Of a DNA stretch of 64,000 nt, positions 11,262 to 63,915 are shown one piece after another (the first letter of the stretch is position 1; every line of letters begins with the position of its first letter). The notes beneath the pieces are model-generated. The model was given only the letters and a program-made list of their open reading frames with translations, searched no databases and had not been told where the DNA came from. Origin of the DNA: Candidatus Parcubacteria bacterium (lineage in GTDB: Bacteria; Patescibacteriota; Patescibacteriia; CAIXNZ01); contig JAPLYG010000009.1 of assembly GCA_026395685.1 (NCBI GenBank), positions 81,519 through 145,518 on the forward strand, read 5' to 3'. A program made the translations under genes and the position numbers.

Positions 11262-11292
11262 ACCCGCCGTTCGCGAACAGCGGGTTTCAGGG
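11262..11292 (-). terminator. Intrinsic terminator downstream of the beta-barrel gene
   Basis: In aaaaaaACCCGCcgttcgcgaacaGCGGGTtt, the stem AACCCGC/GCGGGTT encloses the palindromic loop gttcgcgaac. Read on the minus strand, the hairpin is followed by a T-run. Confidence 0.5.
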
Positions 11293-19598: not shown

Positions 19599-19609
19599 AT
19601 TGATTTTTA

Positions 19610-20230
19610 TTAATTTTCGCGATAATCGATTTGGAATATTGATTGGTCATTTAGTTCATAATTGCGGAGGGAACTGTATTTGTATTCGCTAAGATCTTTA
19701 ACTATACCGTGTTTATATGGGTTTTTGTGAATGTAATCTAACTTCTCCTGAAATTTTTTGTCAGAATAGACATTAAAATCGTAAAATTTTGATTGCCAAA
19801 GACGATATTGCAAATTTCTTTTGTGCGGTGTCTGGTCTCTCGGGATTGCGCGCAGCATCTGCTCTGTTAACCCCATCCCCCTTCGGGTGGAGCGGAGCAT
19901 CGGCTCTGCGCCTGGGTCAGCTTGAGACAAGAGCAGATGCTCTTGTCTTCCCGAACTTGCGTATAAATCAATAATTCTGCGCGCAGCGGCTCCTTTAATC
20001 CCCTGCATAATTTTTGAAATGGTCAATTTTTCATCCTCAAAATAAATCAAACAATGCACATGATCGGGTAAAATTACATAACCATAAATTTTCAAACCAT
20101 ATTTCTGACGATAAAAATCAAATTCCTCCAATAAAATTTTACAGCAATCTTCATCCTTAAATATCGGCCGTCTTATATTCGTCACAAACGTCACGAAATG
20201 AATATCACCCGGTTGATTAATCCTAATCAT
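19610..20230 (-). CDS. Y1 (HUH) transposase family protein, IS200/RAYT-like
   Basis: HUH motif in LPDHVHCLI. The C-terminal WQSKFYDFNVYSD...YIHKNPYKHGIV...YKYSS matches the IS200-like/RAYT catalytic-Tyr region. A GC-rich in-frame insert lies at about 19825-19965. The gene sits between pheS and pheT. Confidence 0.75.
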   Translation of the reverse strand: MIRINQPGDIHFVTFVTNIRRPIFKDEDCCKILLEEFDFYRQKYGLKIYGYVILPDHVHCLIYFEDEKLTISKIMQGIKGAAARRIIDLYASSGRQEHLLLSQADPGAEPMLRSTRRGMGLTEQMLRAIPRDQTPHKRNLQYRLWQSKFYDFNVYSDKKFQEKLDYIHKNPYKHGIVKDLSEYKYSSLRNYELNDQSIFQIDYREN

Positions 20231-20239
20231 TCTAATTGT

Positions 20240-23362: not shown

Positions 23363-24235
23363 CTACTTCAGCTCAATCTTTTCAAACTTAATTCCGCTAC
23401 CAAACCACTCCTCCCCCAACTTCTGGTAATGCGGCGACAAATCAGTCACCTGAAACTTAATATTGTCACCCTGAGGTTCTCGAAGGGTGACATCGTCGGC
23501 GTCATGCTTCGAGATCCTCAGCATGACATTCTCGTTTTTATCCAATTTTGTTTCAATCTCCGGATGCCGTGTCAAATAATCAGCCAAAGAATCAGCCACA
23601 ATTTCACCTGAATGCAAAACTTTTGTTCTTGAACTCATAATCCCCTGAATTTCCTTAAACAGAATCGGATAATGCGTACAGCCTAAAATCAAAGTATCAA
23701 CTTTTGCCAGTTTCAACGGCTGTAAATAAACTCGCAAAATCCTCTTGGCCACATCTGTTTTTTGCCAGCCTTCTTCCACCAAAGGCACCAAAAGCGGACA
23801 CGCCTGCTGTAAAACTTCCAGCTTATTATTAATTTTTCCTATTTCGATTTCATAAGCTTTGGAATTAACAGTACCTTTGGTGCCAATAACACCGATTTTC
23901 TTTTTGGCTACTTTCACTGCTTCTTCAACTACCGGCCTGATCACGCCTAATACTCGCCTATCAGCAAAATGCTGAGGCAACCAGTTTTGCTGTATCTTAG
24001 GCAAAGCTTCAGCTGACGCAGTATTACAGGCAATAATTACCAACTGGCAATCCTGCTTAAATAAAAAATCAACTGCCTGTTCCGTAAAATTATAGATTAC
24101 CTCCCGGGAGCGGTTGCCATATGGCGTCCGCGCATTGTCTCCCAGGTAAATGTAATCGTATTGAGGCAGTTTTTTGATGATTTCTTTAAGAATAATTAAG
24201 CCTCCGAGTCCGGAGTCAAAAATTCCGATCTTCAT
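23363..24235 (-). CDS. murI: Glutamate racemase
   Basis: MKIGIFDSGLGGL...IACNTAS...LGCTHYP motifs. The start is taken at MKIGIF; the ORF track starts 8 codons upstream. The C-terminus is extended and contains the in-frame palindromic element (…DVTLREPQGDNIKF…). Confidence 0.85.
   Translation of the reverse strand: MKIGIFDSGLGGLIILKEIIKKLPQYDYIYLGDNARTPYGNRSREVIYNFTEQAVDFLFKQDCQLVIIACNTASAEALPKIQQNWLPQHFADRRVLGVIRPVVEEAVKVAKKKIGVIGTKGTVNSKAYEIEIGKINNKLEVLQQACPLLVPLVEEGWQKTDVAKRILRVYLQPLKLAKVDTLILGCTHYPILFKEIQGIMSSRTKVLHSGEIVADSLADYLTRHPEIETKLDKNENVMLRISKHDADDVTLREPQGDNIKFQVTDLSPHYQKLGEEWFGSGIKFEKIELK
23465..23491. repeat. 27-bp GC-rich palindromic element (copy 2), in frame inside the murI 3' region
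   Basis: gtcaccctgaggttctcgaagggtgac differs from the pheT copy at one base and encodes the same VTLREPQGD. Confidence 0.8.
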
Positions 24236-24244
24236 AATATTCAA

Positions 24245-24332
24245 GGCGAAAACGCCCAATTTCGGACTGACAGGCTTTAGCCTGTTATATTAACACACTG
24301 AAGTGTGTCAGTCCGTTCCTTAGCGTTTTCGC
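24245..24332 (-). ncRNA. Nested multi-stem structured element immediately upstream of the murI start (candidate regulatory leader or REP-like element)
   Basis: The outer stem is ggcgaaaacgcc/ggcgttttcgc. An inner stem (ggactgaca/tgtcagtcc) encloses two hairpins (caggctttagcctg and acacactgaagtgtgt). On the murI mRNA strand the structure ends 9 nt before the AUG. Confidence 0.3.
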
Positions 24333-38438: not shown

Positions 38439-38476
38439 ACGGGGCTCCGCTCCGAAGCTTCGGTGCGGAGCCCCGT
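38439..38476. repeat. 38-nt near-perfect GC-rich palindrome (REP-like hairpin) in the intergenic region
   Basis: acggggctccgcTccgaagcttcggTgcggagccccgt has only two central mismatches. It shares the GCGGAGC/GCTCCGC core with the hairpins at 25561-25597 and 19880-19900. Confidence 0.6.
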
Positions 38477-48565: not shown

Positions 48566-51500
48566 CTAAGTTTTTTCCAAAGACTTTACATTAGAGGCAA
48601 TATCAGTCAAAGAGCGCCTGACTCTGTCCTTGTCCTGTATCGCCAGCGGATTAGTCTGGATCTCCCGGACTAAATTGGTCATGGAATCTCGCAGTTTATT
48701 AGCCACTGACTGGTCAAATCTCGCACCCAAGCTTTCCTCCATCTTTTTGAGTCCGCTATCAAGATTTTCCTGCATTCTTTTCACTCCCCTCAAAAGCAAA
48801 TCATTGGTAGCAGCACCATCAACGGCCGTAGTACCGGCCTTTATAAAATTATTATAATAATTAGAAACATTTACTGTCGTGGTAGTAGAACTAGGTGCTG
48901 CCTCCGGTCTTGGAGCTGGAGCAGGAGCTGGAGCTGGCGCAGGTGCTGGTTCAGCAGTTCCTGCTGGCGCAGGTGCTGCGGGTTTTGGCTTAGGTGCTGG
49001 AGGAGGAGTTCCTGCTGGCGGAGGAGTCCCTGCTGGCGGTGGTGTAACTGGTGGCTCTTCCTCTTCCTCAGGTTCCTCTTCAGCTGATATATCTACATCT
49101 TTATCTCCTCTTTTTCTGGGAATAGCAAACTTATAGAAGCCAATACCTTGGGCTCGGCTCAAAATACCATACATTTGTCCGCGCTGTCCCTTTAGGTCTT
49201 TACCCTTCAACTCTTCTAATTCTCCAATTAATTCCTCAAGCTTATCAATCTCCATAAATTCAGGAGAATAACCGGCAGTTTCAACTTCTTCCCTGATAGA
49301 ATATGCCAACGCCTCTAACCCTGCCTGAGCACTGGTAATTTTATCAGGAGTAGCTTGACCACTATTAACCTTGGCCAAAAGTCTTTTCAATCTGTCAGAA
49401 ACTTTGCTTTCAGAAGTATTCTTAATCTCACGCTGGTTAATGACATCTCCGCCATGCTCAACATAATCCGCATTGATTTCATCAAAATTTTCTATCTGTC
49501 CGACTTCTGTTGTAGCCATTTTCTTCATACTGCGGGAAACTATTTCTTGTGCCTGTTGCGGAGGTACACCTTTAACTGATTCTAATAAATCCGGCATTTC
49601 TTTTTCCATTTTACTAATAACTTCAGCTGCATTTCGTTCTTGCGGAGTAACTGCTTTGCCCTCACGCATCTTATCCTTAATGCCTCTATAATCATAAAGC
49701 GAGTATTCTTCGCCTTTAATCTTAAATTTCTTTCTTTGTCCGCTTTGATTAAAGAAGATAACTTCAGCCATTTCCTTGCTGGTTTCTCCAGTGACAATAT
49801 CATGGCCAGTACCCTGGACATATTTACCGCCACTAGTCTTATAGCCTTCCTGCAAAGCCTGCATATTTTCCGTGGAATACAACTCTTTATGCATCAAATC
49901 CATCTGCTCTACTTTGCCTTTAATAAACTTATCTCTTGCCTCACCGGTTAAACCTTTTTTGCCTGCTTCTTCTTCAGCATATTTCCTTCTGCCTGCTTCA
50001 TCCTTAGAAGCTGTAATATAGTGCAGCTGCATATCTTCTTCCTTATCCTTAATGAATTTCTTTTTTTCTTCCGGAGTAGTTATTCTGCCTTCTTTTTCCT
50101 CTTTATCTGCTAAATCTGCTACGAGCTTCTTCCTCTCAGCGTCTGTTCCTGTTATCACTTTAATCAGATCACCGGTTGCTTTCTTGCCATTTTTCAGACC
50201 CTGTTCGCCAGACTGCTTCATGCGACCGGCATTTTTTGACAGACCCATCCACAACGCCATTTTTTGCGCAATATTTCCTTCAGCCAGACTTCCTGCCTGC
50301 TTATTATTCATCGCCTTAGTTACCTTTGAAGTATCAGCTGCAGCCGCACTCTTCATCGTGTCTTTAGCTTTTTGGATTTCACCTGCCGTACCAGCCTGCA
50401 CCAGTTGAAATTCATTGGTTTCAGGATTTCTGACTACAGCTGAAACAGATATGCGGTAACCGGTTTTTTCCTCATGTTTATCCTCCCATTTTTTTGATAA
50501 TGCTTCCATATTGGCAACACCTCCTTTAGCTGATTTTTCCAGATCAATTACTTTCTTGCCGGTGGTTTCATCTGTTTTTGTTTTAATACCATAATGTTCA
50601 AAAACACCCAAGTCTAAAGCTTTCTGCATATCATTATCATCAATTAAACCCTGCTCACCTTTGAGATTTAAAAGCGCCAGAAAACGATCGCCGGTAGCAG
50701 TTTTCATCCGCTCGTTAAGTATTTTCGGATCTTTATCTGAACCAACCAGGCGTTCTTGTTTTTCATAATTCTCAATTTCTTTTTGTCTTTGTTCCACCAA
50801 AGCGCCCGGCTTGCCGCCGATCCATTTTTCTACTTGGGCAGTCGAACGCTCTCCCAGAGTTTCACGTCCTTTTTTGGTGGCTACCAGACGAATACCTTTG
50901 GAAATAGCGCCAGAGATGCCACCGCCACGTTCTACTCTTTCTAATCCTTCCTTAGCTGTTAAGCCGGCATATTGTCCGACTTTTCCGGCTGACCATTTGG
51001 CTGTGCGCTCCATTCTGCCCAAAGTCGCATCCTGGATCTTGCCTGCTGCTTTGCCTGCATAGCTGGCGCCCAAAACTTTCATTTCAGAAGTAAATTTCAA
51101 ACCGGCGACCAGCATAATAATGCCCAGCATGTACTTGATAACATAATCCAGACGCCCGGCTTTGGAATTCGCCACTGCATCATCCAGATTTGCCTGTCCC
51201 AGTCCGCCTTCACTGACCTTGGCCAGTTCCGTGGCATACATTACCGTATAATTATTGTTCAGTGTCAGAATTGAAATCCATAAAAAGAAAGCTAAAAGCG
51301 GCCCAACCAGGCAGTATTCTATAAAACTGTTTAACCAACGGCTGCCATAACCTCCGATTCTGCCGCTGACTCCGGTAAAAGCCATAGAAGCAAAGGCAAG
51401 CGGTGAAAAAACAACCAAAACCCAAAGGACAATTATTCTAAAAATTAAAATAATCAGAAAGATCGCGACCACAATCAAGGCGACGACCACATACATGAGC

Positions 51501-52606
51501 CCCAGTAATTTGGAAGAAATCAGCTGGAAGCTGGTTAAGCCTTCATTATTGGTAATCGGATCCCAGATATCGCGCATGCCTAACCCTTTAAATAAGTTCT
51601 CCCCGAGGATATCTTTATAAGCATTAACAAAAGTAAACATCACAACCTGAGACAGGTCGATGATCAGCCCGCAAATTGTACGGGAAAAATTAACCACCAC
51701 GGCCATGATCAGCAGTTTCGGCAAAAGCTTCTGCCACTGGTATCTTTCAATTTTCAGCACCGTAACAAAAGCCACAAAAAGCAAAGCCAGCACGAAAAAC
51801 ATATTGACCAGATCGCGCAAAACAATCCACCCCTGAATAACATAATATGAATTGATAAAATGATTAAATTTACTGACATTAACCACAAGCTCAAAAAATG
51901 CCACTAAAAGTTTGCCCAAAAGGCCGATAACTATATTTATAATAAAAGCCAGCACCTGGATTACAGCATTTGCCTCCTTGTTCCCCTCCTGGGATGTTTG
52001 CCCGTCACCGGTGCCTGTTGATGCAGGCGCAGGCGTCTCAGTCGCTGGGCTAACTTTAGGCTTACAGCAAATTGGCGCAGCCGCCTCACTACAATCCATT
52101 ACCGGAATCTCATCTTCAGTAGTCGTATCACAGCTAGGGCCGGGGCTACAATTGCCTCCTGCTGCAGCACATGCTGTTCCCGGAGCTGTCGGCGCTAAAG
52201 GCGCTGCCGTAGGTTTACAACAAACAGGAGTAGCCCCACTACATTCTGAGCCAGGAGCAAGAGTATCAGGACCAAGACAACCGCCATTAATTACACACGT
52301 GCCATTTTCAGTTGCTGTGCCTGTAGGTGTCTTGCCAGTACAGGGGGTAGCTGCCGGAGCTGCGCAACAAAAAGTCTCAGTGGCTGCACAAGCAGTCATG
52401 CCGGCAGGTACTGTGGTAATAGTCAAATTACTGGGAGTACACACACTTGCAGAACAAGTACCATTTTTCGGTATACCAGCCAAAGTACCATTGCAACTTG
52501 CAGCCAGCACCGGGCTTGCTACAAACAGAAGCAAACCCAGCCCCAGTGTCAGACCAGTCAGGAAAAGGAATGTTAATTTGTTTTTAAGAAAAGATAACAT
52601 CACCAT
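48566..52606 (-). CDS. Polytopic VirB6/TrbL-like membrane protein with Cys/Thr-rich N-terminal ectodomain and a long disordered, Pro-rich C-terminal tail (1346 aa)
   Basis: Signal peptide, Cys-rich region, then six or more TM helices in residues about 210-450, consistent with VirB6-like topology. This is followed by ~800 aa of K/E-rich coiled sequence and PPVTPPPAGTPPPAGTPPPAPKPKPAAPAPA...PAPAPAPAPAP. Confidence 0.45.
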   Translation of the reverse strand: MVMLSFLKNKLTFLFLTGLTLGLGLLLFVASPVLAASCNGTLAGIPKNGTCSASVCTPSNLTITTVPAGMTACAATETFCCAAPAATPCTGKTPTGTATENGTCVINGGCLGPDTLAPGSECSGATPVCCKPTAAPLAPTAPGTACAAAGGNCSPGPSCDTTTEDEIPVMDCSEAAAPICCKPKVSPATETPAPASTGTGDGQTSQEGNKEANAVIQVLAFIINIVIGLLGKLLVAFFELVVNVSKFNHFINSYYVIQGWIVLRDLVNMFFVLALLFVAFVTVLKIERYQWQKLLPKLLIMAVVVNFSRTICGLIIDLSQVVMFTFVNAYKDILGENLFKGLGMRDIWDPITNNEGLTSFQLISSKLLGLMYVVVALIVVAIFLIILIFRIIVLWVLVVFSPLAFASMAFTGVSGRIGGYGSRWLNSFIEYCLVGPLLAFFLWISILTLNNNYTVMYATELAKVSEGGLGQANLDDAVANSKAGRLDYVIKYMLGIIMLVAGLKFTSEMKVLGASYAGKAAGKIQDATLGRMERTAKWSAGKVGQYAGLTAKEGLERVERGGGISGAISKGIRLVATKKGRETLGERSTAQVEKWIGGKPGALVEQRQKEIENYEKQERLVGSDKDPKILNERMKTATGDRFLALLNLKGEQGLIDDNDMQKALDLGVFEHYGIKTKTDETTGKKVIDLEKSAKGGVANMEALSKKWEDKHEEKTGYRISVSAVVRNPETNEFQLVQAGTAGEIQKAKDTMKSAAAADTSKVTKAMNNKQAGSLAEGNIAQKMALWMGLSKNAGRMKQSGEQGLKNGKKATGDLIKVITGTDAERKKLVADLADKEEKEGRITTPEEKKKFIKDKEEDMQLHYITASKDEAGRRKYAEEEAGKKGLTGEARDKFIKGKVEQMDLMHKELYSTENMQALQEGYKTSGGKYVQGTGHDIVTGETSKEMAEVIFFNQSGQRKKFKIKGEEYSLYDYRGIKDKMREGKAVTPQERNAAEVISKMEKEMPDLLESVKGVPPQQAQEIVSRSMKKMATTEVGQIENFDEINADYVEHGGDVINQREIKNTSESKVSDRLKRLLAKVNSGQATPDKITSAQAGLEALAYSIREEVETAGYSPEFMEIDKLEELIGELEELKGKDLKGQRGQMYGILSRAQGIGFYKFAIPRKRGDKDVDISAEEEPEEEEEPPVTPPPAGTPPPAGTPPPAPKPKPAAPAPAGTAEPAPAPAPAPAPAPRPEAAPSSTTTTVNVSNYYNNFIKAGTTAVDGAATNDLLLRGVKRMQENLDSGLKKMEESLGARFDQSVANKLRDSMTNLVREIQTNPLAIQDKDRVRRSLTDIASNVKSLEKT
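48879..49060. repeat. Tandem GC-rich microsatellite-like repeats encoding the PAPAPA/PPAGTPPP tract
   Basis: (gctgga)n/(gcaggt)n and two-and-a-half copies of ggaggagtYcctgctggcgg lie inside the 1346-aa gene. Confidence 0.6.
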
Positions 52607-52612
52607 AATTTA

Positions 52613-55600
52613 TTAATTGCACATAGAACCCTCGCAGCGGGAACCTGGGTTTAATGGATTCGGAATATTACACATATGGCAGTCAGGATTAAACTGTGTC
52701 GGCATACAGAAAGGCAACCAGGTATTACTATAAGTATAAGCAACCATTTTACACTTGGAATCTGCCACACAAGGAGCAGCCTCATCATATTCTTCACAGC
52801 CCAAAGTATCCTCTTTTATAATACAACCCATTGCATAAGTGCCAGCTGCCCAATGCTTACCCCAAAAACACTTAGGATCACGGGAACAAAGGAATCTGGT
52901 AGTCCATTTAGCACAGCCTGAAGAATCAAATCTGTCAACGCAAATACCGGTGGTCCAAGAGCAAAGGCCTAAAGTAGCATCACAATCTGCTTGAGATGTA
53001 TTCACGGAGCAATCTGTCCTACTGACACATGCAGGAGCCTTGGGCTCACAGCCAAATTGGTTTAGGCAACCAAACCATTGCTGATCAAGATTAATTTTAT
53101 AATCGCAGGTTGTTTTTGGCTCACAAAAATCTCCAAGAGTTGCTGCTGGAGTTGCTGTTGGAGCCTTCCAGTTACAAGCATCATTAGCTTGACAGGCACT
53201 CTTAAGCTGAATCGTTGTACAAAGATTCACGCATTGCTGATTGGGAAAATCCCAATAACAGCCATCATTGCCTGCTTCATTGCAGGTATCCTCGCTATAT
53301 TTTGTTTCACACGCAGAGGTGCAGAGATAATCTTCTCCGACCTCGCAGGTTGAACTATTTTTACATGCATTACTGGTTAATGGGGTTATATCTGATTTAC
53401 AGCAGACGCTGCCATAAGCAGTACATTGGATTCCCGGAGATAAAATATCTGTTTCCGCACAACTGCCAGAAGCCTGGCACTGGCCATTTATATAGGTATA
53501 ACCCGGATCGCCGACAGCTACTCCTGAACATAGCTGTGCAGTTACCAGCCCGGTAGTAGACATTTCTATACATTTATTTTCACATTTTAAATCTTGCTCA
53601 TTCCAGGAACAGTTTGTATTGCAACCAGCTGGATCTAAAATCAAATTGCAGGTATCACGGCAAACATCAGGCCGCCACTGACAAAATTTATCATCATTAC
53701 AAACTTTGGCATTAGGATTTGGAAGACAGCATATTGGAAAGTTATTATTCGGACATTTATTATCTACTGGAAACTCGTTAGATCCGCACTTACCCAGATT
53801 TTTTCTGCAGATACCGCCTGCATCTTTACAGGTTCCTACCGGAAGACTTTGTACTGCTGCCGGATATTTCTTATCGCACTGTAAATTACAGCTCCACCTC
53901 CAGCGATCTTTATCTGCCCAATAAGCATTCCAGGAGCAGTAATCTGCTTTTTGAGTCATACAAATCTCGCCTCTGGGGCCATGAGAATCAATATTTGTCG
54001 TACCCAAACCGCTATATCTATAAGTACAAATATCTTCCATGCAATAATGATTGAAATAGCTGCAATAAGTGGCAAGCGACTCACAGTCTTTTTGCTTTGT
54101 AGCTTCAGTGGCATTAATATTTGGCGTCGTAAGACTGCAAATATTGAAAAGGCAGGTAGCTGTGGCCTCATCCCAGGTACACATATCCTGGCCTGACTCA
54201 GTTACATCTTTTTCGCAATCTGTCTTATTCTTATGATAATCACACACATTTTTTATACATTGGCCGTTGTTCCACGCACAATAAGGCAGAAGTTCACACT
54301 TAGTTTTATTTTTCAGCAAGCCGCATTCGTCAATTTTAAAAGGAAAGTAAGTTAAACAAGCATTGGCGCCTTCACGATAAATTCCCCCATACAAGGGATT
54401 CAATAAATCATATTCCAGGCAACGGCCCTGAAAACCTAAATTTGTTTTAATGGTTTCAACAGCGCTGCATTGTCCGATGATTTTTTCATCAGTATTTTCC
54501 TCACTCAAAGGAATAACGCATTGGGGATTATTTTTTGTAACCCCCTGGCATAAGCGTCCCTCAACTGCTTTGTTGCCGGTACAAATTTGAGGCTTATTGT
54601 TTGATTCGCTTATAATTTTATTTAAAAATCCATAAGGAAAATAAGTAATGGTTCCTGTTGCTTCAGCCTTGTCATAATTACACCCGTCGGCAATATTTTT
54701 TAGGGTTAAAGTAGGACTAAAAAGATTAACCACCTTGCTATACTTGCTCAGCCGGGAAATATCATAAGGCAAAGGAGAATCTTCTTCCGGAAATATTTTG
54801 CAGACCGGGCTGATAAATCTTTGATCTGGTTCGGCAATGGGATCAACACTGGTATATTCCACGGGATACTTGGCAAACAAATATCCGTCATTAATTTCCA
54901 CTTCAACCGGATAGCGGTCAGGAATAGTATAACCGGAGTAATCTCCCAACTCCCAGCGTTTAATCGCATCATCCATGCCGGTTCCGCTTCCTGCAAATCT
55001 GGTAACATATGTGGCGCGGGTAATTTTTAATGGAGCCGAAGGTGTGGCTTTTGTATACCTGACTCCGTCAAAATTTGAGTGAATTAGAGGATCAGTATTA
55101 CCGGTATTTATTGTCTTGCTTATTTCCGTTGTCCCTTCAGAATTATAGGTAATAACCTGAGTCTGTCTGCAATTGCCTAGTCTGTCAGTTTCTGAACAGA
55201 TCACCCATTCTCCGCAGTCACGATCTTTGCTGACTTTTATAGTCTCAATATTATTATTACTGGTCTGATTTTTAAAAGCGACACAGCCTTTATTCCAATC
55301 AACGCTGGAACATGATGAACGGTCAATATTATTGCCGTTGTCAATTACATGATAAATCTGGCCGGAAGATTGATCCTGATTGATTGTCTGGAAACTGGAA
55401 CACCCGCTATATGCGCTCTGGCACTCACCGGTATAATTTATATACCCAGTATCAGTAACCTTAAGAATGCCAAAAGGATTGGCCACGCAAAGCCCTGCTC
55501 CTGAAGAAAGCCAGATGCCATGCTGATTTTCGCAATCAGCCTGACCTGTAGCTGACATGCCCTTACCGCACTGTTTCAAATCACCCACCCAGATACCGCC

Positions 55601-58600
55601 GCAATAGCTGCATGGTGTAGAACCAGTACTGCAGTCGGGCTGATTTCTCATGGTATTACATCCAATTTCTGTACCGGCCACAAACCAACCGCTTATAGTC
55701 TGCTGCTCGATCGGCTTATTAGCCTGGTACTGGCAAATTTTGGTCGGATCAATCTTGTAATATTCCGGCGAGCCGTTTTCATTGATCAGTTCCACGCAGC
55801 CTTCAGCATCCTGATTGCATAAAATTGCGCGCGCGCCTTCATAATTATCAGGATTATTTTTCAGATAAGCAACATCATAAACCACACCTGAACCCTGAGT
55901 CAAAACCGGCTCTTCAAATTTCTGACAGCCTTTATTCTCATACGTGCACTTGAATTTTTGGTTAACCACATAGGCTGTAAGTACATCTGACGGCACTGCA
56001 ATGTTCAGACTGGTCTTTGTATTCGGCGCTAAAGAATTCTGGGTATCAATCAGGTATTGGCAGCCAACTTTGTCAGCAGCGCATAATTTGCTGAATGATT
56101 TAAGATAAAACATCTGGCTGTTTGGCCCGCGATAAGCCGCGCAATTATAATCTACATAGGTGCAATTGGGCTGTGACCAGCTGTTTTTTATCAGATAATA
56201 ATTGTCTTTTTGCTGGATCAGGCTGATATTATCAAGGTTAAGCACATCAGTGCCGGAAACATTATTAAAGGTAATTGAGTCAAATGAAGAATTCAAATAG
56301 ATTGGCCCCAATTGGTACATATTCCAGGTATTCAATAATTCGGTTTCGCCAAAATTAGTTATGCGCAAAGTGCCGTTACCTTTGGCTGTAAATTGTAGAA
56401 TATAATAGTTGCCTTTGGAAAGAGTTGCTTGCCTGACAGCCGAGCCATAAGCCGCGATTTCCAGGGAATGACCGCCGGCATCCTGGCTGGCGGAACTTAA
56501 GCTGATGCCAGGACCGCTATACTGGGTCGGTAAATTGACGCTGTCTTCAAAAGTATCGTTAAATGAATGATAGGTATTATAAATGCCGGCACCATAATAA
56601 TGATAACATCCTGCCTGGGCTGCCGGACATTTCATGCTTAAAGAAGAAATGCCATCGTAAACGCAGTACTTATTGGTTTCATCCCACTTGCCATTAGTGA
56701 CACCGCAGGTTTCTTGAGTCGCAATGGTTTTTCTGTAAGGATGGCAATCTGCTGAGGCAATAATGGTTTTTCTGACATCCCGAAAATAAGTATTTCCGGC
56801 TGAATCGTAAAACTTCAGGCAATAACCGGTTGACAAAACATTGCTCCTGCAATCCTCTGAATTATCAAAAGTTTTGGGAGAACCGTCACCATTTGCCTGT
56901 AAAACATGCTTGACCACTTGTTGCGGTCCATCAGAAATACTTTCCCAGGTATAAAAAGTCTGTTCCCCCAAGCCAGAACCGGGCTTAATGCACTGCCTGA
57001 GCATTGTATAGTATTCAATGCCCTCGCCTCCCTTGGCTACTTCATCTAAATTAGTAAATTGGGAACAGCCGACATTAGCTGCCTGACAGGTTGTAGCAGT
57101 CTTTGGTACAAAGTCGGCTAATTCGCGAATCGGCTCAAAAGCAGTAGGCTGTTGAATATATTGATTATAACCGACGCATTCTGCCGGACACTGATCATCT
57201 TCCTGAATTACAGCCGTAACATCAGGATCACCATTTACCGGCTGGTACAAAGCGCAACCAACATCATCAGAGGAACATTTCATCATAAAATTATTGCAAT
57301 CATTGCGGGTGGGGCTGCTAGAATCGCAATTGGCGCTGGTTTTGTAATATACTCTGGTTGCCAAAACATCCTGATCATAACTGGCCGGCAAAACAAAACC
57401 CGTTGCCTGAAAATCGCTGATAGTCGTAGGATTTGCGATATATTCATGGCAGCCGTCATTCTTTTCCTCGCATGTTTCGATATTGCGATTGAAATAAAAT
57501 TTATCTAAGTTGTAGGTTTTATCAATTGATTTATAGCCTTTGCAATTAACTGTATCGGGCCCGCAATTGGAGGGGTCTAAAGTATTTTTGAGATACGCCA
57601 AATCAGCTTCACGGCCATTGGATTGAATCTGAGTATAGGTACGACAGCTGGAAAAATAGTCCGGGCAGGCTTTAGCGCTAAAACGCCAGACATTCTTTTC
57701 CTTAACACAAACCTGATAATTGCTGCTGCCGCAGGATTTAGGCTGATCATCTTTGACACAACTCACAAAATCAGCGCAACGCGAATAGCGGCGTCCTGAT
57801 TGATTATCCGTCAGAAGTTCGCCAAATGATTCAACCTGCAATGTCCTGGCGTCAGTCGGCAGATAACACTTGGTAGCCGGAATTTTTAAAACCCAATATG
57901 GATCAACCAGATTGCAAAATGGTGATTCTGCAGTGTCATAATTGCCGCAAATACCGTCCTGGCCGCGCTTATCAAAAGCAGTAACAATCTCCCCAAAAGT
58001 AGCATTGACAACCTGATTATACATTAATTTATTAACTTCTATATCAGTCCCAAATTTACAATTGTCAATCCTTTGTTTCGCATAGGGGGAAATAGGAAGT
58101 GTGGTCATTGATAAATCAATAAACTGTCCGAAATCATTACCCGTTGAAGCTGTATAAGCGCAATTAGCCGTACCCGGTACACAGGAAACACAACTGGCAT
58201 TATCAGCAGACCAAGAACACAAATTAGTAATGGATAGACAACTAGACAGTCCCAGGCTCTGGCAGGGATTATAATATTTACGGAAGTTACAATCTCTTAC
58301 CAGTTCAGCTGCCAGCTCCATGCCCAAAGGCACAACACGCGCTTTTCTCAGTTTTCTTATATTGGATAAATTGTAGGTATTATCTTCAATCTCTTCACCC
58401 CAGGAAAATGTGGCACCGGACTTTAATTTGCCCTGGCTAAGCGCCTGATCAATGGTCAGCCTGTTTTGAATAGCCATGGCAAAACTTTGATCAATGACCT
58501 GATTATAAATATTGGGATTAGCATTTTTACCCTGCAGATTGAGCTGGAATTCCTGCAATAAATCCAGATCGGAAAATTCATTATTGGTGCCCGGCTCAAA

Positions 58601-60205
58601 ACTGGTGAAATAAAGGGATACTCCGGACTCGGTAATAATACTTTGATTCTCTTTGACGAAAATACTGCCTTTATTTTCCTTCTGTTTTCTGGGATTTGAC
58701 AGAGCCATCATAAGCTCATTGATATACAAATTATATAATTCCTGTAAAAAGACGCCCAAAGAATCAGCCACAATACTCTTTGTATATTCAGTCATGCTGT
58801 CAGATGGAGTGAGAGACTGAATTGATTTCGCTTTCAAAATATCAGCCGGAGTTTTAATATAGCCTGTTACTTTATCCACCATGCCTTTCCAGCCGCCACT
58901 GGTACTGACTTCTGTTTTTTTGCGTTCTTCTGCTTCAGTCTGGGCTTTGCCTGTGCCTTCTTGCACCTGCGTTTTAGTGGTATTGGCCGGATCTGCCTGT
59001 GGTTCAAACTGAGTTTTTGCTTTTTGATAAGTATAAAGTCCGGCTCCGCGGAACATCTTGGCCTGGATGCGGTTATTAACAAATTTTTGCAGCTGCTCGT
59101 AGCCATTACTGATAGAATTATAAAGATTAGCGGCATCCTGCAGTTTAGCCTGGGCTTCGCGCTGAAAAATACCTGCCGCCTGAGAACCAGGTGCCACTTC
59201 AGCTGCAGTCGGGATCGTAGTATAACCGACATTCATTAAGGCTTGCTTGCATTGATTAATTAAGCCAGTGGCGTCTTTTTTCATGCAGGCTTGGTAGGTG
59301 GCGCGGCTGGTATTAACCGGACGCTGGGCATCATTAATTTTTTTATTCCAGGCACTTTTAATATCAGGTATATATTCTTCAGAAACATAATAATTGCTGC
59401 CCACAGTCAGGGTAACCGGCTGGTTTGTTCCCCTGCCGGCTATTAATTTATCAACGTCAGCATCTAATTGCTGTCTGGTAAGGTCTAAGGCTGCTGCTTT
59501 GGCTGTTAAATCTGATTTAGCCGAGGTACCTGCTAAAAGACTGTCACTGGTAATATCACGATTGATTTGGCTTACTGTCTGCTGAAAATTCGGACCAATA
59601 TCAGTTGTTTTAATTTTAATGAAATCCTGCCATTCCTTGCCTTCGAAATTAAATTGTTCCTTTAATTCCAAAAAGCTGCAACCTTTGGGAACTGCGCCAA
59701 AAATGCTTTTTTGCGCTAAAGTGTCGGGCTTATTCGGCAAAGTCAGGGCAATATTCAAGGTCAGAGTAGGATCAAAATGGCAGAGATCAAGGCCGATTCC
59801 CTGGCTTACTGCTCCCGTCAACCAGTCTTCAAAAGCAGCCTGGCCCTGGTCTTTTATCGCACCATAAGGGTCTGTTTCCCAAATCGGCTTTTGGCCTTTG
59901 CCCATTAAAACAATCGAGGAAGCGGTTTTTTTGGCAAATTCTCTGCCCAGATTGGCAACTACGTTTTTGAAAAAAGTCGCTTTCAGATCGTCCAATACTT
60001 CGTCTTTAGTAAATTTTGCAAATTCCAATCCCTTCCAACCCGTCTGGATGGATGATAAAAGAGAATCAATTACCATCTGGACCTGGGCATTAGCCGGATT
60101 AATATCAACAAAAAGAAAAAAATAAAAATTGCTTAGCACAAAAAAGAAAACCAAAAAGGAAAGAATCGCCTTATTGATTTTCTTTTTATTTTCATTTCCC
60201 CGCAT
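52613..60205 (-). CDS. Giant Cys-rich secreted protein (2530 aa), last-but-one gene of the T4SS-like block
   Basis: N-terminal signal/TM (ILSFLVFFFVLSNFYFFLFV...ANA), about 150 Cys throughout, and no internal stops. No confidently recognisable catalytic domain. Confidence 0.6.
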   Translation of the reverse strand: MRGNENKKKINKAILSFLVFFFVLSNFYFFLFVDINPANAQVQMVIDSLLSSIQTGWKGLEFAKFTKDEVLDDLKATFFKNVVANLGREFAKKTASSIVLMGKGQKPIWETDPYGAIKDQGQAAFEDWLTGAVSQGIGLDLCHFDPTLTLNIALTLPNKPDTLAQKSIFGAVPKGCSFLELKEQFNFEGKEWQDFIKIKTTDIGPNFQQTVSQINRDITSDSLLAGTSAKSDLTAKAAALDLTRQQLDADVDKLIAGRGTNQPVTLTVGSNYYVSEEYIPDIKSAWNKKINDAQRPVNTSRATYQACMKKDATGLINQCKQALMNVGYTTIPTAAEVAPGSQAAGIFQREAQAKLQDAANLYNSISNGYEQLQKFVNNRIQAKMFRGAGLYTYQKAKTQFEPQADPANTTKTQVQEGTGKAQTEAEERKKTEVSTSGGWKGMVDKVTGYIKTPADILKAKSIQSLTPSDSMTEYTKSIVADSLGVFLQELYNLYINELMMALSNPRKQKENKGSIFVKENQSIITESGVSLYFTSFEPGTNNEFSDLDLLQEFQLNLQGKNANPNIYNQVIDQSFAMAIQNRLTIDQALSQGKLKSGATFSWGEEIEDNTYNLSNIRKLRKARVVPLGMELAAELVRDCNFRKYYNPCQSLGLSSCLSITNLCSWSADNASCVSCVPGTANCAYTASTGNDFGQFIDLSMTTLPISPYAKQRIDNCKFGTDIEVNKLMYNQVVNATFGEIVTAFDKRGQDGICGNYDTAESPFCNLVDPYWVLKIPATKCYLPTDARTLQVESFGELLTDNQSGRRYSRCADFVSCVKDDQPKSCGSSNYQVCVKEKNVWRFSAKACPDYFSSCRTYTQIQSNGREADLAYLKNTLDPSNCGPDTVNCKGYKSIDKTYNLDKFYFNRNIETCEEKNDGCHEYIANPTTISDFQATGFVLPASYDQDVLATRVYYKTSANCDSSSPTRNDCNNFMMKCSSDDVGCALYQPVNGDPDVTAVIQEDDQCPAECVGYNQYIQQPTAFEPIRELADFVPKTATTCQAANVGCSQFTNLDEVAKGGEGIEYYTMLRQCIKPGSGLGEQTFYTWESISDGPQQVVKHVLQANGDGSPKTFDNSEDCRSNVLSTGYCLKFYDSAGNTYFRDVRKTIIASADCHPYRKTIATQETCGVTNGKWDETNKYCVYDGISSLSMKCPAAQAGCYHYYGAGIYNTYHSFNDTFEDSVNLPTQYSGPGISLSSASQDAGGHSLEIAAYGSAVRQATLSKGNYYILQFTAKGNGTLRITNFGETELLNTWNMYQLGPIYLNSSFDSITFNNVSGTDVLNLDNISLIQQKDNYYLIKNSWSQPNCTYVDYNCAAYRGPNSQMFYLKSFSKLCAADKVGCQYLIDTQNSLAPNTKTSLNIAVPSDVLTAYVVNQKFKCTYENKGCQKFEEPVLTQGSGVVYDVAYLKNNPDNYEGARAILCNQDAEGCVELINENGSPEYYKIDPTKICQYQANKPIEQQTISGWFVAGTEIGCNTMRNQPDCSTGSTPCSYCGGIWVGDLKQCGKGMSATGQADCENQHGIWLSSGAGLCVANPFGILKVTDTGYINYTGECQSAYSGCSSFQTINQDQSSGQIYHVIDNGNNIDRSSCSSVDWNKGCVAFKNQTSNNNIETIKVSKDRDCGEWVICSETDRLGNCRQTQVITYNSEGTTEISKTINTGNTDPLIHSNFDGVRYTKATPSAPLKITRATYVTRFAGSGTGMDDAIKRWELGDYSGYTIPDRYPVEVEINDGYLFAKYPVEYTSVDPIAEPDQRFISPVCKIFPEEDSPLPYDISRLSKYSKVVNLFSPTLTLKNIADGCNYDKAEATGTITYFPYGFLNKIISESNNKPQICTGNKAVEGRLCQGVTKNNPQCVIPLSEENTDEKIIGQCSAVETIKTNLGFQGRCLEYDLLNPLYGGIYREGANACLTYFPFKIDECGLLKNKTKCELLPYCAWNNGQCIKNVCDYHKNKTDCEKDVTESGQDMCTWDEATATCLFNICSLTTPNINATEATKQKDCESLATYCSYFNHYCMEDICTYRYSGLGTTNIDSHGPRGEICMTQKADYCSWNAYWADKDRWRWSCNLQCDKKYPAAVQSLPVGTCKDAGGICRKNLGKCGSNEFPVDNKCPNNNFPICCLPNPNAKVCNDDKFCQWRPDVCRDTCNLILDPAGCNTNCSWNEQDLKCENKCIEMSTTGLVTAQLCSGVAVGDPGYTYINGQCQASGSCAETDILSPGIQCTAYGSVCCKSDITPLTSNACKNSSTCEVGEDYLCTSACETKYSEDTCNEAGNDGCYWDFPNQQCVNLCTTIQLKSACQANDACNWKAPTATPAATLGDFCEPKTTCDYKINLDQQWFGCLNQFGCEPKAPACVSRTDCSVNTSQADCDATLGLCSWTTGICVDRFDSSGCAKWTTRFLCSRDPKCFWGKHWAAGTYAMGCIIKEDTLGCEEYDEAAPCVADSKCKMVAYTYSNTWLPFCMPTQFNPDCHMCNIPNPLNPGSRCEGSMCN

Positions 60206-62457: not shown

Positions 62458-62634
62458 ACTTAAAAAATTAATTGCTTAGTTATACGTTTATCGGTTTCCT
62501 GCCTTCGCCCGTATGAGACGGGCTACGGCAGACAAGCGTTTTTCGTTACGTCAATAGTTTAACGAAAAACGTAACGATCATCGATACCGAATAACGATAA
62601 ACCGATTTTATTTTCTAATTATTTTTGCCATCAA

Positions 62635-63240
62635 TTATATTTCATCAATTAATCCGGGATACTTTGTATAAATATATTGATAATTTGCCGCATCAAAAAT
62701 GTTATGCTTTGCGGGATTATTATAAAGATATCGCATATGTTGATTAAAATCATCATAATTGCGAATATAATGATCGTGAAGTGATTTTTGCCAATGAAAT
62801 TTTACATACAAAGTTTGATTTAATCCATATTTTGCCACAAATTGACGGCGCGTTGTAATCAAATATTCATAATGCTTTTCGATTATCTCTTCATAAATTT
62901 TATATTCCTCCCCCAATTGAAGGAGCGATTTGCAAATCGCTCCTTCGTCGACATAACCTAAGATAAAATTTATATTCCTGGTATAGTGTCTTTTGATAAA
63001 TTGCATTATTTTCGATAAATCCATCGCTTCATACGGCAAAAACATTAAATGAAAATGATCCAATAATATTACAAACGAATATAAATCAAATTTGTGCCTT
63101 TTTTTCGCCAATTTTAAAATTTCAATAAACAACTCGCAAAAAATCGACTCCTTAAAATATTCAACCCGGTTATCGGCAACACCTGTCACAAAATAAGTCG
63201 CCCCTTCAAAATATATCCGTTTTTGCGCTCCTTTATGCAT
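62635..63240 (-). CDS. Y1 (HUH) transposase family protein, IS200/RAYT-like (second copy)
   Basis: HUH motif in LLDHFHLMF. The C-terminal WQKSLHDHYIRNYDDFNQHMRYLYNNPAKHNI...YQYI is conserved with the 19610-20230 protein. A perfect 28-bp palindrome lies at 62919-62946 in frame. Confidence 0.75.
   Translation of the reverse strand: MHKGAQKRIYFEGATYFVTGVADNRVEYFKESIFCELFIEILKLAKKRHKFDLYSFVILLDHFHLMFLPYEAMDLSKIMQFIKRHYTRNINFILGYVDEGAICKSLLQLGEEYKIYEEIIEKHYEYLITTRRQFVAKYGLNQTLYVKFHWQKSLHDHYIRNYDDFNQHMRYLYNNPAKHNIFDAANYQYIYTKYPGLIDEI
62919..62946. repeat. Perfect 28-bp palindrome inside the second Y1 transposase gene
   Basis: gaaggagcgatttgcaaatcgctccttc equals its own reverse complement and encodes EGAICKSLL in frame. 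Confidence 0.8.
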
Positions 63241-63915
63241 TTACTTACCTATTATTTTTGAAAATAAAAGATCCCGAATAATCCTCAATCCGCTGCCAAA
63301 ACGCTGGCCATAATTATGATATAAAATTTCTACCGGAATTTCCTGATATTTTAAATTATTCAGCCGAACTTGCTCCAAAATTTCCGTAGCATGAGCCATG
63401 CCATCCTGATTAATAGTAATTTTTTCTGCAGCATTTTTTGATACAGCTCGAAAGCCGCAATGCGCGTCAGTTAGCCTTATACCTGTAAACAGCCAGTTGA
63501 AAATTATTGCCGGATAGTGAATAAAATATTTTTTTGACCAGGGCGTCTGGGACTTTTTATCCAGAGATCTGGAACCAAAAACAATATCAGCCTGACCGGC
63601 TATAATCGGGGCAATTATCTGGGCGATATCTTTGACCTGCATCTGGCCGTCACCGTCAAAATGCACGATTATTTCCGCACCCTGATTCAGGGCAAATTCA
63701 GTTCCGGTCTGCAAAGCCGCGCCCTGTCCCCTATTTATAAAATGCTTTAACAATTTAACATTTAACCCTTTAACAATTTCCGCCGTATTATCAGTTGAGC
63801 AATCGTCAACAACTACAATATTAGGCGTAATCTCTTTTAATTGAGAAAGAACGCCGCTGATATTTTTTTCTTCATTGTAAGCTGGAATCACGATCCAGAC
63901 CTTTTGATCTAACAT
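63241..63915 (-). CDS. Polyprenyl-phosphate glycosyltransferase, GT2 (DPM1/GtrB-like)
   Basis: VWIVIPAYNEEKNI...VVVDDCSTDNT...NRGQGAALQTG...HFDGDGQ. Its stop directly abuts the transposase start codon. Confidence 0.85.
   Translation of the reverse strand: MLDQKVWIVIPAYNEEKNISGVLSQLKEITPNIVVVDDCSTDNTAEIVKGLNVKLLKHFINRGQGAALQTGTEFALNQGAEIIVHFDGDGQMQVKDIAQIIAPIIAGQADIVFGSRSLDKKSQTPWSKKYFIHYPAIIFNWLFTGIRLTDAHCGFRAVSKNAAEKITINQDGMAHATEILEQVRLNNLKYQEIPVEILYHNYGQRFGSGLRIIRDLLFSKIIGK

What the first reader, a model, noticed from the sequence alone, without database searches (positions are those of the whole stretch)
62919..62946. Perfect 28-bp palindrome embedded in the second Y1 transposase ORF
gaaggagcgatttgcaaatcgctccttc is exactly self-complementary and is translated as EGAICKSLL. 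It lies between the HUH motif (LLDHFHLMF) and the Tyr motif, as in the first copy. HUH enzymes of the IS200/RAYT family recognise hairpin DNA. A hairpin inside the enzyme's own gene could be a target or self-regulatory site, or another in-frame palindrome insertion.
Basis: seen in the sequence. Interest (0 to 1): 0.6.

Follow-up and report, generated by a model that had tools for sequence, protein, structure and literature searches.

The report
REP-type palindrome inside its transposase gene
The perfect 28-bp palindrome is real and is the type of DNA hairpin that this family of domesticated transposases (RAYTs) acts on, carried in frame inside the enzyme's own gene; this arrangement was described in 2018 for a related subgroup, so it is a new variant and not a new kind of system.

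Summary
GAAGGAGCGATTTGCAAATCGCTCCTTC (62919-62946) is a perfect 14+14 palindrome inside a 201-aa REP-associated tyrosine transposase (RAYT) gene (62635-63240, minus strand). It encodes EGAICKSLL between the HUH motif and the catalytic Tyr.

It is not chance and not a protein motif. About 40 of 56 homologous genes, mostly Patescibacteria, carry a perfect or one-mismatch palindrome of 22-48 bp in the same loop and the same codon phase. The outer feet (GAAG...CTTC) are conserved. The inner stem varies freely, but always by paired changes. The encoded peptide is a low-confidence surface linker.

In some related loci the same palindrome also flanks the gene. In one Parcubacteria genome it also lies at the 3' ends of other genes. 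It therefore behaves as the family's own low-copy REP.

Quentin et al. 2018 (PMC6006769) already reported in-frame REP insertions inside tnpA_REP genes of subclass 2.4. This case differs in four ways: a different loop (alphaC:beta4), GAAG feet instead of GT[AG]G, symmetry through the centre, and no flanking copies in the window or in the closest relatives.

Self-regulation is untested. Verdict: a real feature and a new variant of a known kind, of moderate interest.

The parts
62919..62946 (.). Perfect 28-bp palindrome: feet GAAG/CTTC, stem GAGCGATT/AATCGCTC, self-complementary centre TGCA. It encodes E99-L107 on the minus strand.
   Evidence: homologous palindromes
62635..63240 (-). RAYT / TnpA_REP gene, copy 2 (201 aa), intact. 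Its start codon directly follows the last base of the upstream glycosyltransferase ORF as listed (63241-63915).
63049..63057 (-). HUH motif codons H62-F63-H64.
   Evidence: aligned with PEHMHC of E. coli TnpA_REP, PDB 4ER8
62797..62958 (-). Family-specific insert (about residues 95-148) between helix alphaC and strand beta4. The palindrome encodes a linker at its start (block-mean pLDDT about 60 for residues 101-110), followed by an extra helix at residues 110-138.
62761..62793 (-). W150-R160 (WQKSLHDHYIR). These match the residues that contact the GTAG foot of REP in E. coli TnpA_REP (W94, Q95, E100, H101, R104).
   Evidence: residue roles taken from PMC6006769
62728..62730 (-). Codon of the catalytic Tyr171 (YLYNNP).
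62893..62903 (.). Outer inverted-repeat arm ATAAATTTTAT, complementary to 62963-62973. Weak feature, seen only in the three closest relatives; may be chance or a coding effect.
62963..62973 (.). Outer inverted-repeat arm ATAAAATTTAT, partner of 62893-62903.
19610..20230 (-). RAYT copy 1 (206 aa, 28% identical to copy 2), inserted between pheS and pheT.
19925..19948 (.). Intragenic hairpin of copy 1: 11-bp arms with an asymmetric 2-nt centre, encoding RQEHLLLS. Degenerate units lie at 19894-19907 and 19852-19865. The insert has GC 0.60 against 0.33 for the rest of the gene.

Best explanation
The palindrome is a REP-type palindrome, the kind of hairpin-forming DNA that REP-associated tyrosine transposases (RAYT/TnpA_REP) bind and cut. 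It is carried in frame inside the RAYT gene, in the surface loop between helix alphaC and strand beta4.

Shown:
1. It is homologous to palindromes at the same loop and codon phase in most genes of this mostly Patescibacteria RAYT clade.
2. The feet (GAAG...CTTC) and the adjacent G/C positions are conserved. The inner stem and centre vary freely, but always symmetrically.
3. The constraint is on duplex-type DNA symmetry. It is not on the peptide and not on an RNA fold.
4. In related loci or genomes, near-identical copies flank the gene or sit at the 3' ends of other genes. Whole units are gained or lost in frame.

Inferred:
1. On single-stranded DNA, during replication or transcription, it folds into a hairpin. 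Because the palindrome is perfect, the hairpin is identical on both strands. The encoded enzyme recognises foot plus stem.
2. Arm-to-arm copying, by template switching or by processing of the hairpin, keeps the two halves identical.
3. The copy persists because it is the substrate physically linked to its enzyme, and because the loop it encodes tolerates any sequence.

Whether it also regulates the gene is unknown.
For: Enzyme identity:
- NCBIfam REP_Tyr_transpos and Pfam Y1_Tnp both score above their cut-offs.
- A profile of the family hits E. coli TnpA_REP, PDB 4ER8, at E = 1.8e-12. HUH, W-Q, D-H, R and Tyr all align.

Conservation of DNA symmetry:
- The best hairpin between HUH and WQK is a long zero-loop palindrome in about 40 of 56 homologous genes.
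- 31 of 56 genes have perfect arms of at least 11 nt, and 34 of 56 exceed all 200 shuffles. The rest of each gene typically gives arms of 3-6 nt.
- All 40 palindrome centres lie in the same codon phase.
- On 39 distinct sequences and 18 pairs, 90% of cells are paired against 64% in shuffles. The covariation score is 0.66 against 0.18 (0 of 500 shuffles reach it), and slid controls give 0.06-0.12.
- The central tetranucleotide is self-complementary in 38 of 39 sequences.
- Mismatches show no G-T excess: GT 4, AC 3, AG 3.
- Between the window and L143 the palindrome is 27/27 nt identical, against 73% for the rest of the gene. Third codon positions are 9/9 identical against 58%.

Peptide:
- The inner residues are hypervariable: AICKS, DIGQC, ANNYS, AVTSP, GQALV.
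- The AlphaFold2 model has mean pLDDT 89.6, with its only internal dip (block mean about 60) at residues 101-110.

REP behaviour:
- Near-identical copies lie just outside the gene in L011, L016, L026, L029, L037, L039, L041, L042 and L044.
- One Parcubacteria MAG has one intragenic copy (L127) and three copies outside any RAYT-like ORF on other contigs, with the same stems (L088, L095, L112). Copies outside any RAYT-like ORF (in L091, L135 and L149 lying in gaps between ORFs) also occur in other Parcubacteria/Buchananbacteria MAGs.
- Nearly identical genes differ by a clean 51-nt in-frame unit bounded by the direct repeat GAARGCGACRTTGGC (L164 against L165 and L011).
- Half-arm tandem duplications occur in L012, L016, L019, L022, L031, L037 and L041.

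Published precedent: in-frame REPs inside tnpA_REP genes of subclass 2.4 (PMC6006769).
Against: - No second copy exists in the 64-kb window. No flanking copy was found within about 3 kb in about a dozen of the closest relatives. For this genome the 'repetitive' part of REP is therefore not shown, and the rest of the genome could not be read.
- The feet are GAAG/CTTC, not the canonical GT[AG]G/C[TC]AC.
- In a perfect palindrome the foot is base-paired, not single-stranded.
- The strict symmetry of the four central bases is not explained by hairpin recognition.
- Binding or cleavage by this enzyme has not been tested.
- Symmetry could be maintained by a mutational mechanism alone, without any function.
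Confidence: 0.65

Rival explanations
1. Passive relic. A REP once inserted into a permissive loop of an ancestral RAYT gene and no longer interacts with the enzyme. Its perfect symmetry is kept only by a mutational bias: intrastrand template switching that copies one arm, and the centre, from the other.
For: - The peptide is dispensable. The linker has low pLDDT, and homologues without the unit exist (L164, L043, L051).
- Symmetry extends through the centre, which hairpin function does not require.
- There are no extragenic copies in the window or near the closest relatives.
Against: - Template switching preserves symmetry but not sequence. Yet the feet and flanking positions G5, A7, G9, G11, C26, C28, T30 and C32 are at least 90% conserved across genes that are 30-70% identical.
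- Almost no decayed intermediates are seen: about 40 palindromes are perfect or have one mismatch, and few are worse.
- Where extragenic copies exist, they match the intragenic copy of the same locus. This implies ongoing exchange.
Confidence: 0.2
2. An mRNA hairpin that controls translation, stability or RNase III processing of the RAYT transcript. This would be self-regulation at the RNA level.
For: - The stem is strong on the sense strand: RNA fold about -26 kcal/mol for the 88-nt context.
- From my own knowledge, IS200 tnpA is controlled by an mRNA stem-loop.
Against: - The inner nine pairs (columns 10-18) contain no G-U pairs across 39 sequences. Across the inner 14 pairs, G-T mismatches (4) are no more common than A-C (3) or A-G (3).
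- The central four bases, which are unpaired in RNA, are still self-complementary in 38 of 39 sequences.
- The same palindromes occur outside genes in either context.
Confidence: 0.07
3. A dyad-symmetric binding site for some dimeric duplex-DNA-binding protein, such as a regulator or a restriction-modification enzyme, unrelated to the RAYT.
For: Perfect two-fold symmetry including the centre.
Against: - The inner 14 bp differ completely between genomes, with 13 different centre tetranucleotides, so no single recognition sequence exists.
- The feature tracks RAYT genes specifically, and it also tracks a second RAYT family that has an asymmetric centre.
Confidence: 0.04
4. Chance palindrome, or a by-product of a conserved peptide motif.
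For: The residues E-G...L-L/R-L are recurrent in homologues.
Against: - Arms of 14 nt were never reached in 100 random windows.
- Symmetry is conserved at synonymous sites.
- Inner residues vary freely while the DNA stays symmetric.
Confidence: 0.01

Closest known systems
In-frame REP insertions inside tnpA_REP genes of TnpA_Y1 subclass 2.4 (= Bertels RAYT group 4); Quentin, Siguier, Chandler & Fichant 2018, BMC Genomics 19:475 (PMC6006769)
   Same: - A REP-type palindrome sits inside the RAYT gene, in frame, between HuH and Tyr, in a peripheral variable region.
- 'Double foot' palindromes carry a foot and its complement at the two ends.
- Short repeats make the region vary in length.
- The REP families are low-copy.
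- The protein is about 200 aa with WQ and Y[IL]xNNP motifs.
   Different: - Here the insert lies in the alphaC:beta4 loop, not beta3:alphaC.
- HuH reads DH[FV]H, not NH[IFV]H.
- The feet are mostly GAAG/CTTC (27 of 39), not GT[AG]G.
- The hosts are mostly Patescibacteria, which the paper's taxonomic summary (Table 1 and the subclass text read here) does not list.
- In the window and the closest relatives there are no flanking REPs, and the genes are packed 0-10 nt from at least one neighbour.
- Position, codon phase and through-centre symmetry are conserved across the clade. The text of the paper read here does not report this.
Classical REPtron: E. coli TnpA_REP (YafM, PDB 4ER8) with flanking REP/BIME (Nunvar 2010; Ton-Hoang 2012; Messing 2012, as cited in PMC6006769)
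   Same: - The same enzyme fold and catalytic residues, and matching residues for foot binding.
- The enzyme is paired with a GC-rich palindrome.
- The genes are single-copy and non-identical, as expected of domesticated genes.
   Different: - E. coli REPs are extragenic, imperfect (bulged), high-copy and flank the gene.
- Here the palindrome is perfect, intragenic and apparently single in 64 kb.
Intragenic REPs and Rickettsia palindromic elements (RPE) inserted in frame in unrelated genes (Di Nocera et al. 2013, PMC3733652; Ogata et al. 2000 as cited there)
   Same: A small palindromic repeat is translated as part of a functional protein and tolerated in a loop.
   Different: Those insertions are scattered among housekeeping genes. 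Here the host gene is the palindrome's own cognate enzyme, and the site is conserved across a clade.
Rolling-circle initiator genes that contain their own origin: phiX174 gene A, and pT181 repC (own knowledge, not tested here)
   Same: The nicking enzyme's recognition site lies inside its own coding sequence. In pT181 that site is a hairpin.
   Different: Those are replication origins of autonomous replicons with a demonstrated nick site. Nothing suggests replication initiation here.
IS200/IS605 TnpA with subterminal imperfect hairpins
   Same: A Y1 HUH enzyme that recognises DNA hairpins on single strands.
   Different: IS ends are two different imperfect hairpins outside the gene, and copies are multiple and identical. 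Here there is one perfect internal palindrome and divergent paralogues (28% identity).

Membership tests
RAYT / TnpA_REP (REP-associated tyrosine transposase) | Y1 HUH core: HuH motif, conserved W(Q), catalytic Tyr in Y-x-x-x-N-P | tested here: met
   DHFH (H62, H64), W150-Q151 and Y171 in YLYNNP. NCBIfam NF047646 scores 86.5 bits (cut-off 80), Pfam PF01797 scores 34 bits (cut-off 23), and PDB 4ER8 is hit at E = 1.8e-12.
RAYT / TnpA_REP (REP-associated tyrosine transposase) | Low copy number with divergent paralogues, not IS-like identical copies | tested here: met
   The two copies in the window are 28% identical. Copy 1 has conserved synteny after pheS in two other genomes.
RAYT / TnpA_REP (REP-associated tyrosine transposase) | Gene flanked by its cognate REPs (REPtron) | tested here: not met
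   No strong hairpin (perfect stem of at least 8 bp) within 400 nt of the gene other than the internal one, and no copy of the palindrome in 64 kb. A structured but bulged hairpin element does lie 62480-62610 downstream. The feature is met in more distant relatives: L011, L016, L029, L041 and L044.
RAYT / TnpA_REP (REP-associated tyrosine transposase) | Binds and cleaves REP single-stranded DNA | not testable with these tools
   This needs biochemistry.
REP (repetitive extragenic palindrome) | 20-40 bp GC-rich palindrome able to form a stable hairpin | tested here: met
   28 bp, GC 0.50 in a gene of GC 0.31. DNA fold -13 kcal/mol, z = -5.6.
REP (repetitive extragenic palindrome) | Conserved GT[AG]G tetranucleotide at the foot | tested here: not met
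   The foot is GAAG here and in 27 of 39 relatives. GTAG occurs in 2.
REP (repetitive extragenic palindrome) | Repeated and dispersed in extragenic space of the same genome | tested here: inconclusive
A related MAG has one intragenic copy plus three copies outside any RAYT-like ORF on other contigs. Other CPR MAGs have copies outside any RAYT-like ORF, several of them in gaps between ORFs.
TnpA_Y1 subclass 2.4 (Quentin et al. 2018) | Key motifs NH[IFV]H / WQ / YIxNNP, median length 194 aa | tested here: inconclusive
   WQ is met, YLYNNP is close, and the length is 201 aa. HuH is DHFH, not NHxH. No reference sequences were available for a tree.
TnpA_Y1 subclass 2.4 (Quentin et al. 2018) | REP inserted in frame within the gene, between HuH and Y | tested here: met
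TnpA_Y1 subclass 2.4 (Quentin et al. 2018) | Variable insertion located in the beta3:alphaC loop | tested here: not met
   The insert replaces E. coli residues 88-92, that is alphaC:beta4. Some distant relatives (L067, L068, L071-L073) and some copy-1 relatives (P0104, P0110-P0113) do have beta3:alphaC palindromes.

The most novel reading that the evidence does not exclude
In this Patescibacteria clade the REPtron is turned inside out. The gene-internal palindrome would be the enzyme's only, or master, cis site. The gene is packed against its neighbours with no room for flanking hairpins. The enzyme would therefore act on its own coding DNA. That action could be autoregulation, by binding or nicking the hairpin when the gene becomes single-stranded. 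Alternatively the internal copy could be the template from which the few extragenic copies are seeded and kept matched. The strict through-centre symmetry would be a footprint of that processing, for example snap-back copying after a nick.
Probability: 0.2. Interest if true: 0.7.

Novelty: new variant of a known kind. Interest (0 to 1): 0.4.

Why it matters
How RAYTs and their REPs stay matched, and what RAYTs do for the cell, are still open questions. A RAYT whose only nearby REP is built into its own reading frame, in a tiny streamlined genome, is a minimal natural pairing of enzyme and substrate. Enzyme and site cannot be separated by recombination. The site can be recoded synonymously, and natural variants already provide dozens of matched pairs. 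The through-centre symmetry and the absence of wobble pairs point to a DNA-level copying process, which could be tested. For annotation, it warns that the variable 'linker' peptides in these proteins are translated repeat DNA, not protein motifs.

Tried and rejected
- Rfam scan of the whole window: only two tRNAs, nothing at the palindrome or in the structured intergenic stretches.
- Extra copies in the window: the exact 28-mer at up to 3 mismatches, and a foot-only degenerate pattern, found no true second copy.
- Reaching the rest of the source contig through the exact protein: not on record.
- Genome-collection scan with GGAGCGATTNNNNAATCGCTCC: 83 loci. By inspection of flanking sequence only, many hits look like terminator-type hairpins (A-run/T-run flanked) and several carry GTAG...CTAC feet, in unrelated phyla. 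Only nine CPR loci were informative.
- Outer inverted repeat around the palindrome (62893-62903 / 62963-62973): exceeds shuffles in the window, but is shared by only two close relatives. It lies in conserved codons (NINF / KIY), so it was not treated as part of the element.
- The 17-nt direct repeat flanking the palindrome as a target-site duplication: rejected. The two copies are 70 nt apart (one base out of frame), each lies in a conserved coding segment, and the sequence is itself quasi-palindromic (my own reading of the sequence).
- Synteny of copy 2 with its window neighbours (GT2, DUF2304, KsgA) in homologous loci: none found.
- Literature search for RAYTs in Patescibacteria: no relevant paper.
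- Downstream intergenic element 62480-62610 as a flanking REP: it has no similarity to the palindrome and no repeat in the window.

Full report
**1. The observation**

The sequence GAAGGAGCGATTTGCAAATCGCTCCTTC occupies window 62919-62946. It is a perfect 14+14 palindrome with no spacer. It lies in ORF 62635-63240 on the minus strand (201 aa) and is read as E99-GAICKSL-L107 plus the first base of Q108.

The ORF is a REP-associated tyrosine transposase (RAYT, also called TnpA_REP).
- NCBIfam REP_Tyr_transpos scores 86.5 bits (cut-off 80), and Pfam Y1_Tnp is above its cut-off.
- A profile of the family hits E. coli TnpA_REP (PDB 4ER8) at E = 1.8e-12, with HUH, W-Q, D-H, R and the catalytic Tyr aligned.

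The palindrome is the longest perfect palindrome in the window. In 100 first-order Markov random windows the longest arm never exceeded 12, with a median of 8. As single-stranded DNA it folds at -13 kcal/mol, z = -5.6. Its GC content is 0.50 in a gene of 0.31. It has no second copy in the 64 kb at up to three mismatches.

**2. What homologues show**

A protein search returned 83 relatives. The sources that name them mostly call them Parcubacteria, Buchananbacteria, Peregrinibacteria or 'Patescibacteria group'.

In the alignment the segment E-[GE]-[GA]-I-x-x-S-[LR]-L recurs. The variants are exactly those that can be back-translated into palindromes. I therefore fetched DNA for 80 homologous loci and looked for the best hairpin between the HUH and WQK motifs.
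- In about 40 of 56 genes it is a zero-loop palindrome of 22-48 bp, perfect or with one mismatch, at the homologous place.
- 31 of 56 genes have perfect arms of at least 11 nt, and 34 of 56 exceed every one of 200 shuffles. The rest of each gene typically gives arms of 3-6 nt.
- In all 40 genes the centre falls after the second base of a codon.

On 39 distinct sequences aligned by their centre, the 18 symmetric pairs gave these figures:

| Measure | Observed | Shuffled | Partner slid by 1-3 columns |
|---|---|---|---|
| Cells paired | 90% | 64% | 36-43% |
| Covariation score | 0.66 | 0.18 (0 of 500 shuffles reach the observed value) | 0.06-0.12 |

These sequences were chosen as the best palindrome of each gene, so the pairing percentage is partly circular. 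The informative results are the following.
- The feet and neighbouring positions are conserved, with consensus CCGAAGGCG...CGCCTTCGG.
- The inner 14 bp differ almost completely between genomes.
- The inner nine pairs contain no G-U pairs at all.
- The four central bases, which cannot pair in a hairpin, are self-complementary in 38 of 39 sequences.
- Mismatches show no bias toward G-T: GT 4, AC 3, AG 3.
- Between the window and its 70%-identical relative L143, the palindrome is 27/27 nt identical while the rest of the gene is 73% identical. Third codon positions are 9/9 identical against 58%.

The peptide inside the palindrome varies freely: AICKS, DIGQC, ANNYS, AVTSP, GQALV and others. An AlphaFold2 model with mean pLDDT 89.6 has its only internal confidence dip (block mean about 60) at residues 101-110. 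This lies between helix 74-94 (alphaC) and a family-specific extra helix at 110-138.

The conserved object is therefore a dyad-symmetric piece of DNA. It is neither a protein motif nor an RNA fold.

**3. It behaves as the family's REP**

In the more distant relatives L011, L016, L026, L029, L037, L039, L041, L042 and L044, near-identical copies of the intragenic palindrome lie just upstream or downstream of the gene. This is the classical REPtron layout.

A pattern scan of one genome per species returned 83 loci; by inspection of flanking sequence, many look like terminator-type hairpins and several carry GTAG...CTAC feet, in unrelated phyla. The informative hits were nine CPR loci.
- Three are inside RAYT genes: L127, L143 and L154.
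- Six lie outside any RAYT-like ORF: L088, L091, L095, L112, L135 and L149. In L091, L135 and L149 the palindrome sits in a gap between ORFs; in L095 it sits about 30 nt after a long ORF, at the edge of the next open frame; the L088 and L112 placements are less clear.
- One Parcubacteria MAG has the intragenic copy (L127) plus three such copies on other contigs with identical stems. Their centres differ but are all self-complementary: CATG, CGCG, CGCG and GGCC.

A near-isogenic comparison is also informative. The genes in L165 and L011 differ from the otherwise almost identical gene in L164 by a clean 51-nt in-frame unit. This unit is one palindrome plus spacer, bounded by the direct repeat GAARGCGACRTTGGC. 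The flanking palindrome clusters also differ in unit number. Several genes show tandem duplications of half arms, for example L022 (EGAIGINPEGINPEGINP...) and also L012, L016, L019, L031, L037 and L041.

**4. The first copy**

The paralogue at 19610-20230 is 28% identical to copy 2. It has its own intragenic hairpin, AGACAAGAGCA-TC-TGCTCTTGTCT, at 19925-19948. Two degenerate units lie in the same alphaC:beta4 region, and that insert has GC 0.60 against 0.33 for the rest of the gene.

Its relatives conserve the hairpin (GSQEHLLLA and similar). They often carry it twice in opposite orientation. In L169 there are also copies in the spacer upstream of the gene. Some relatives instead carry palindrome-encoded repeats (PNEFGAT...) in the beta3:alphaC loop. 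Each RAYT family therefore carries its own palindrome inside the gene.

**5. What is already known**

Quentin, Siguier, Chandler and Fichant (2018, PMC6006769) state that a unique feature of TnpA_REP subclass 2.4 is that REP sequences are found inserted within the tnpA_REP genes as well as flanking them. [quoted passage not shown] The paper also describes 'double foot' REPs that carry GT[AG]G and its complement at the two ends. Bertels et al. 2017 (PMC5581495) report that this group (their group 4) is associated with only low-copy flanking 16-mers. The kind of feature is therefore published.

The present case differs in several respects.
- The insert is in the alphaC:beta4 loop, replacing E. 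coli residues 88-92. It is not in beta3:alphaC.
- HuH reads DHFH.
- The feet are GAAG/CTTC in 27 of 39 sequences. Even so, the residues that bind GTAG in E. coli (W94, Q95, E100, H101, R104) are matched by W150, Q151, D156, H157 and R160.
- In the window and in about a dozen of the closest relatives, the internal palindrome is the only strong hairpin within 400 nt of the gene.
- The genes are packed 0-10 nt from neighbours on the same strand, in differing contexts. These are after recJ (L127, L154, L170), before tsaD (L143, L171), before a LigD_N gene (L172), and in the window between a GT2 glycosyltransferase and DUF2304.

I found no paper on RAYTs in Patescibacteria.

**6. Mechanism**

The best-supported reading has confidence about 0.65. 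The palindrome is the cognate REP-type site of this RAYT, inherited within the clade in a permissive loop.

Shown:
- homology of position and codon phase;
- constraint on DNA symmetry, with conserved feet;
- identity with extragenic copies where these exist;
- gain and loss of whole units in frame.

Inferred:
- The palindrome folds into a hairpin on single-stranded DNA. Because it is a perfect palindrome, the hairpin is identical on both strands.
- The encoded enzyme recognises foot plus stem.
- The arms are kept identical by arm-to-arm copying.
- The copy persists through physical linkage to its enzyme.

The main rival, at about 0.2, is a passive relic kept symmetric by template switching alone. 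The conserved foot sequence, the scarcity of decayed intermediates, and the match between intragenic and extragenic copies of the same locus argue against it. An mRNA regulatory hairpin is unlikely, at about 0.07, given the absence of wobble pairs and the symmetric centre. A site for an unrelated dimeric protein, and chance, are essentially excluded.

**7. Unexplained**

Hairpin recognition does not account for the through-centre symmetry of the copy-2 family, which contrasts with the asymmetric TC/GA centre of the copy-1 family. It points to a copying process or to recognition as duplex DNA.

**8. Verdict**

The feature is real and non-random, and it is correctly located. It is a new variant of a known kind, namely an in-frame REP inside its own RAYT gene. 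Interest is moderate.

Noticed in passing
window 17163-21280: RAYT copy 1 (19610-20230) is wedged between pheS (20240-21280) and pheT (17163-19598) with about 10-nt spacers. Orthologues that are 64-79% identical are also directly downstream of pheS in two other assemblies (L167, L169), so this is a stable, vertically inherited position inside the pheST operon.
   Followed up: partly
window 23464-23528 (in ORF 23363-24259, minus strand): An Asp/Glu-racemase (MurI-like) ORF carries an in-frame pair of mutually inverted hairpins: GTCATGCT...AGCATGAC and GTCACCCT...AGGGTGAC, encoding NVMLRISKHDADDVTLREPQGDN. They lie beyond the Pfam domain. This looks like a REPIN-like doublet translated as part of the protein, and it is unrelated in sequence to either RAYT palindrome.
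   Followed up: partly
window 24246-24332 and 62480-62610: Two intergenic elements share one design: a long outer stem enclosing two smaller GC-rich hairpins. One lies between a phosphoglucomutase-like gene and murI, the other just downstream of RAYT copy 2. Neither has an Rfam match or a repeat in the window.
   Followed up: partly
window 38439-38476 and 11260-11287: Two more long GC-rich palindromes (38 bp and 28 bp, one mismatch each), apparently in gaps between the listed ORFs. They may be terminators. They show no sequence relation to the RAYT palindromes.
   Followed up: no
L164 1067-1657; L165 1501-2136: RAYT homologues P0056 and P0054 lie inside CRISPR-cas loci, between cas3 and cas1 or next to cas2 and cas4. 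They are surrounded by clusters of their own REP-like palindromes.
   Followed up: no
L127, L154, L170 (recJ); L143, L171 (tsaD): Relatives of RAYT copy 2 recur immediately after recJ (single-strand DNA exonuclease) or immediately before tsaD, with spacers of 3-8 nt where gene calls give the distance (L170, L171). There is no room for flanking hairpins there. The recJ adjacency spans relatives that are 46-67% identical to the window protein.
   Followed up: partly
L006 2973-2999; L015 2613-2641: The hairpin CAACATAGCGCCAATTTTGCGCTATGTTG overlaps the RAYT start codon in two relatives. It may sequester the start of translation.
   Followed up: no
window 34290-38372, 48566-52606, 52613-60205: Three very large ORFs on the minus strand (1360, 1346 and 2530 aa). 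The largest is extremely cysteine-rich and begins with a hydrophobic N-terminal stretch that looks like a signal or anchor sequence. None was analysed.
   Followed up: no
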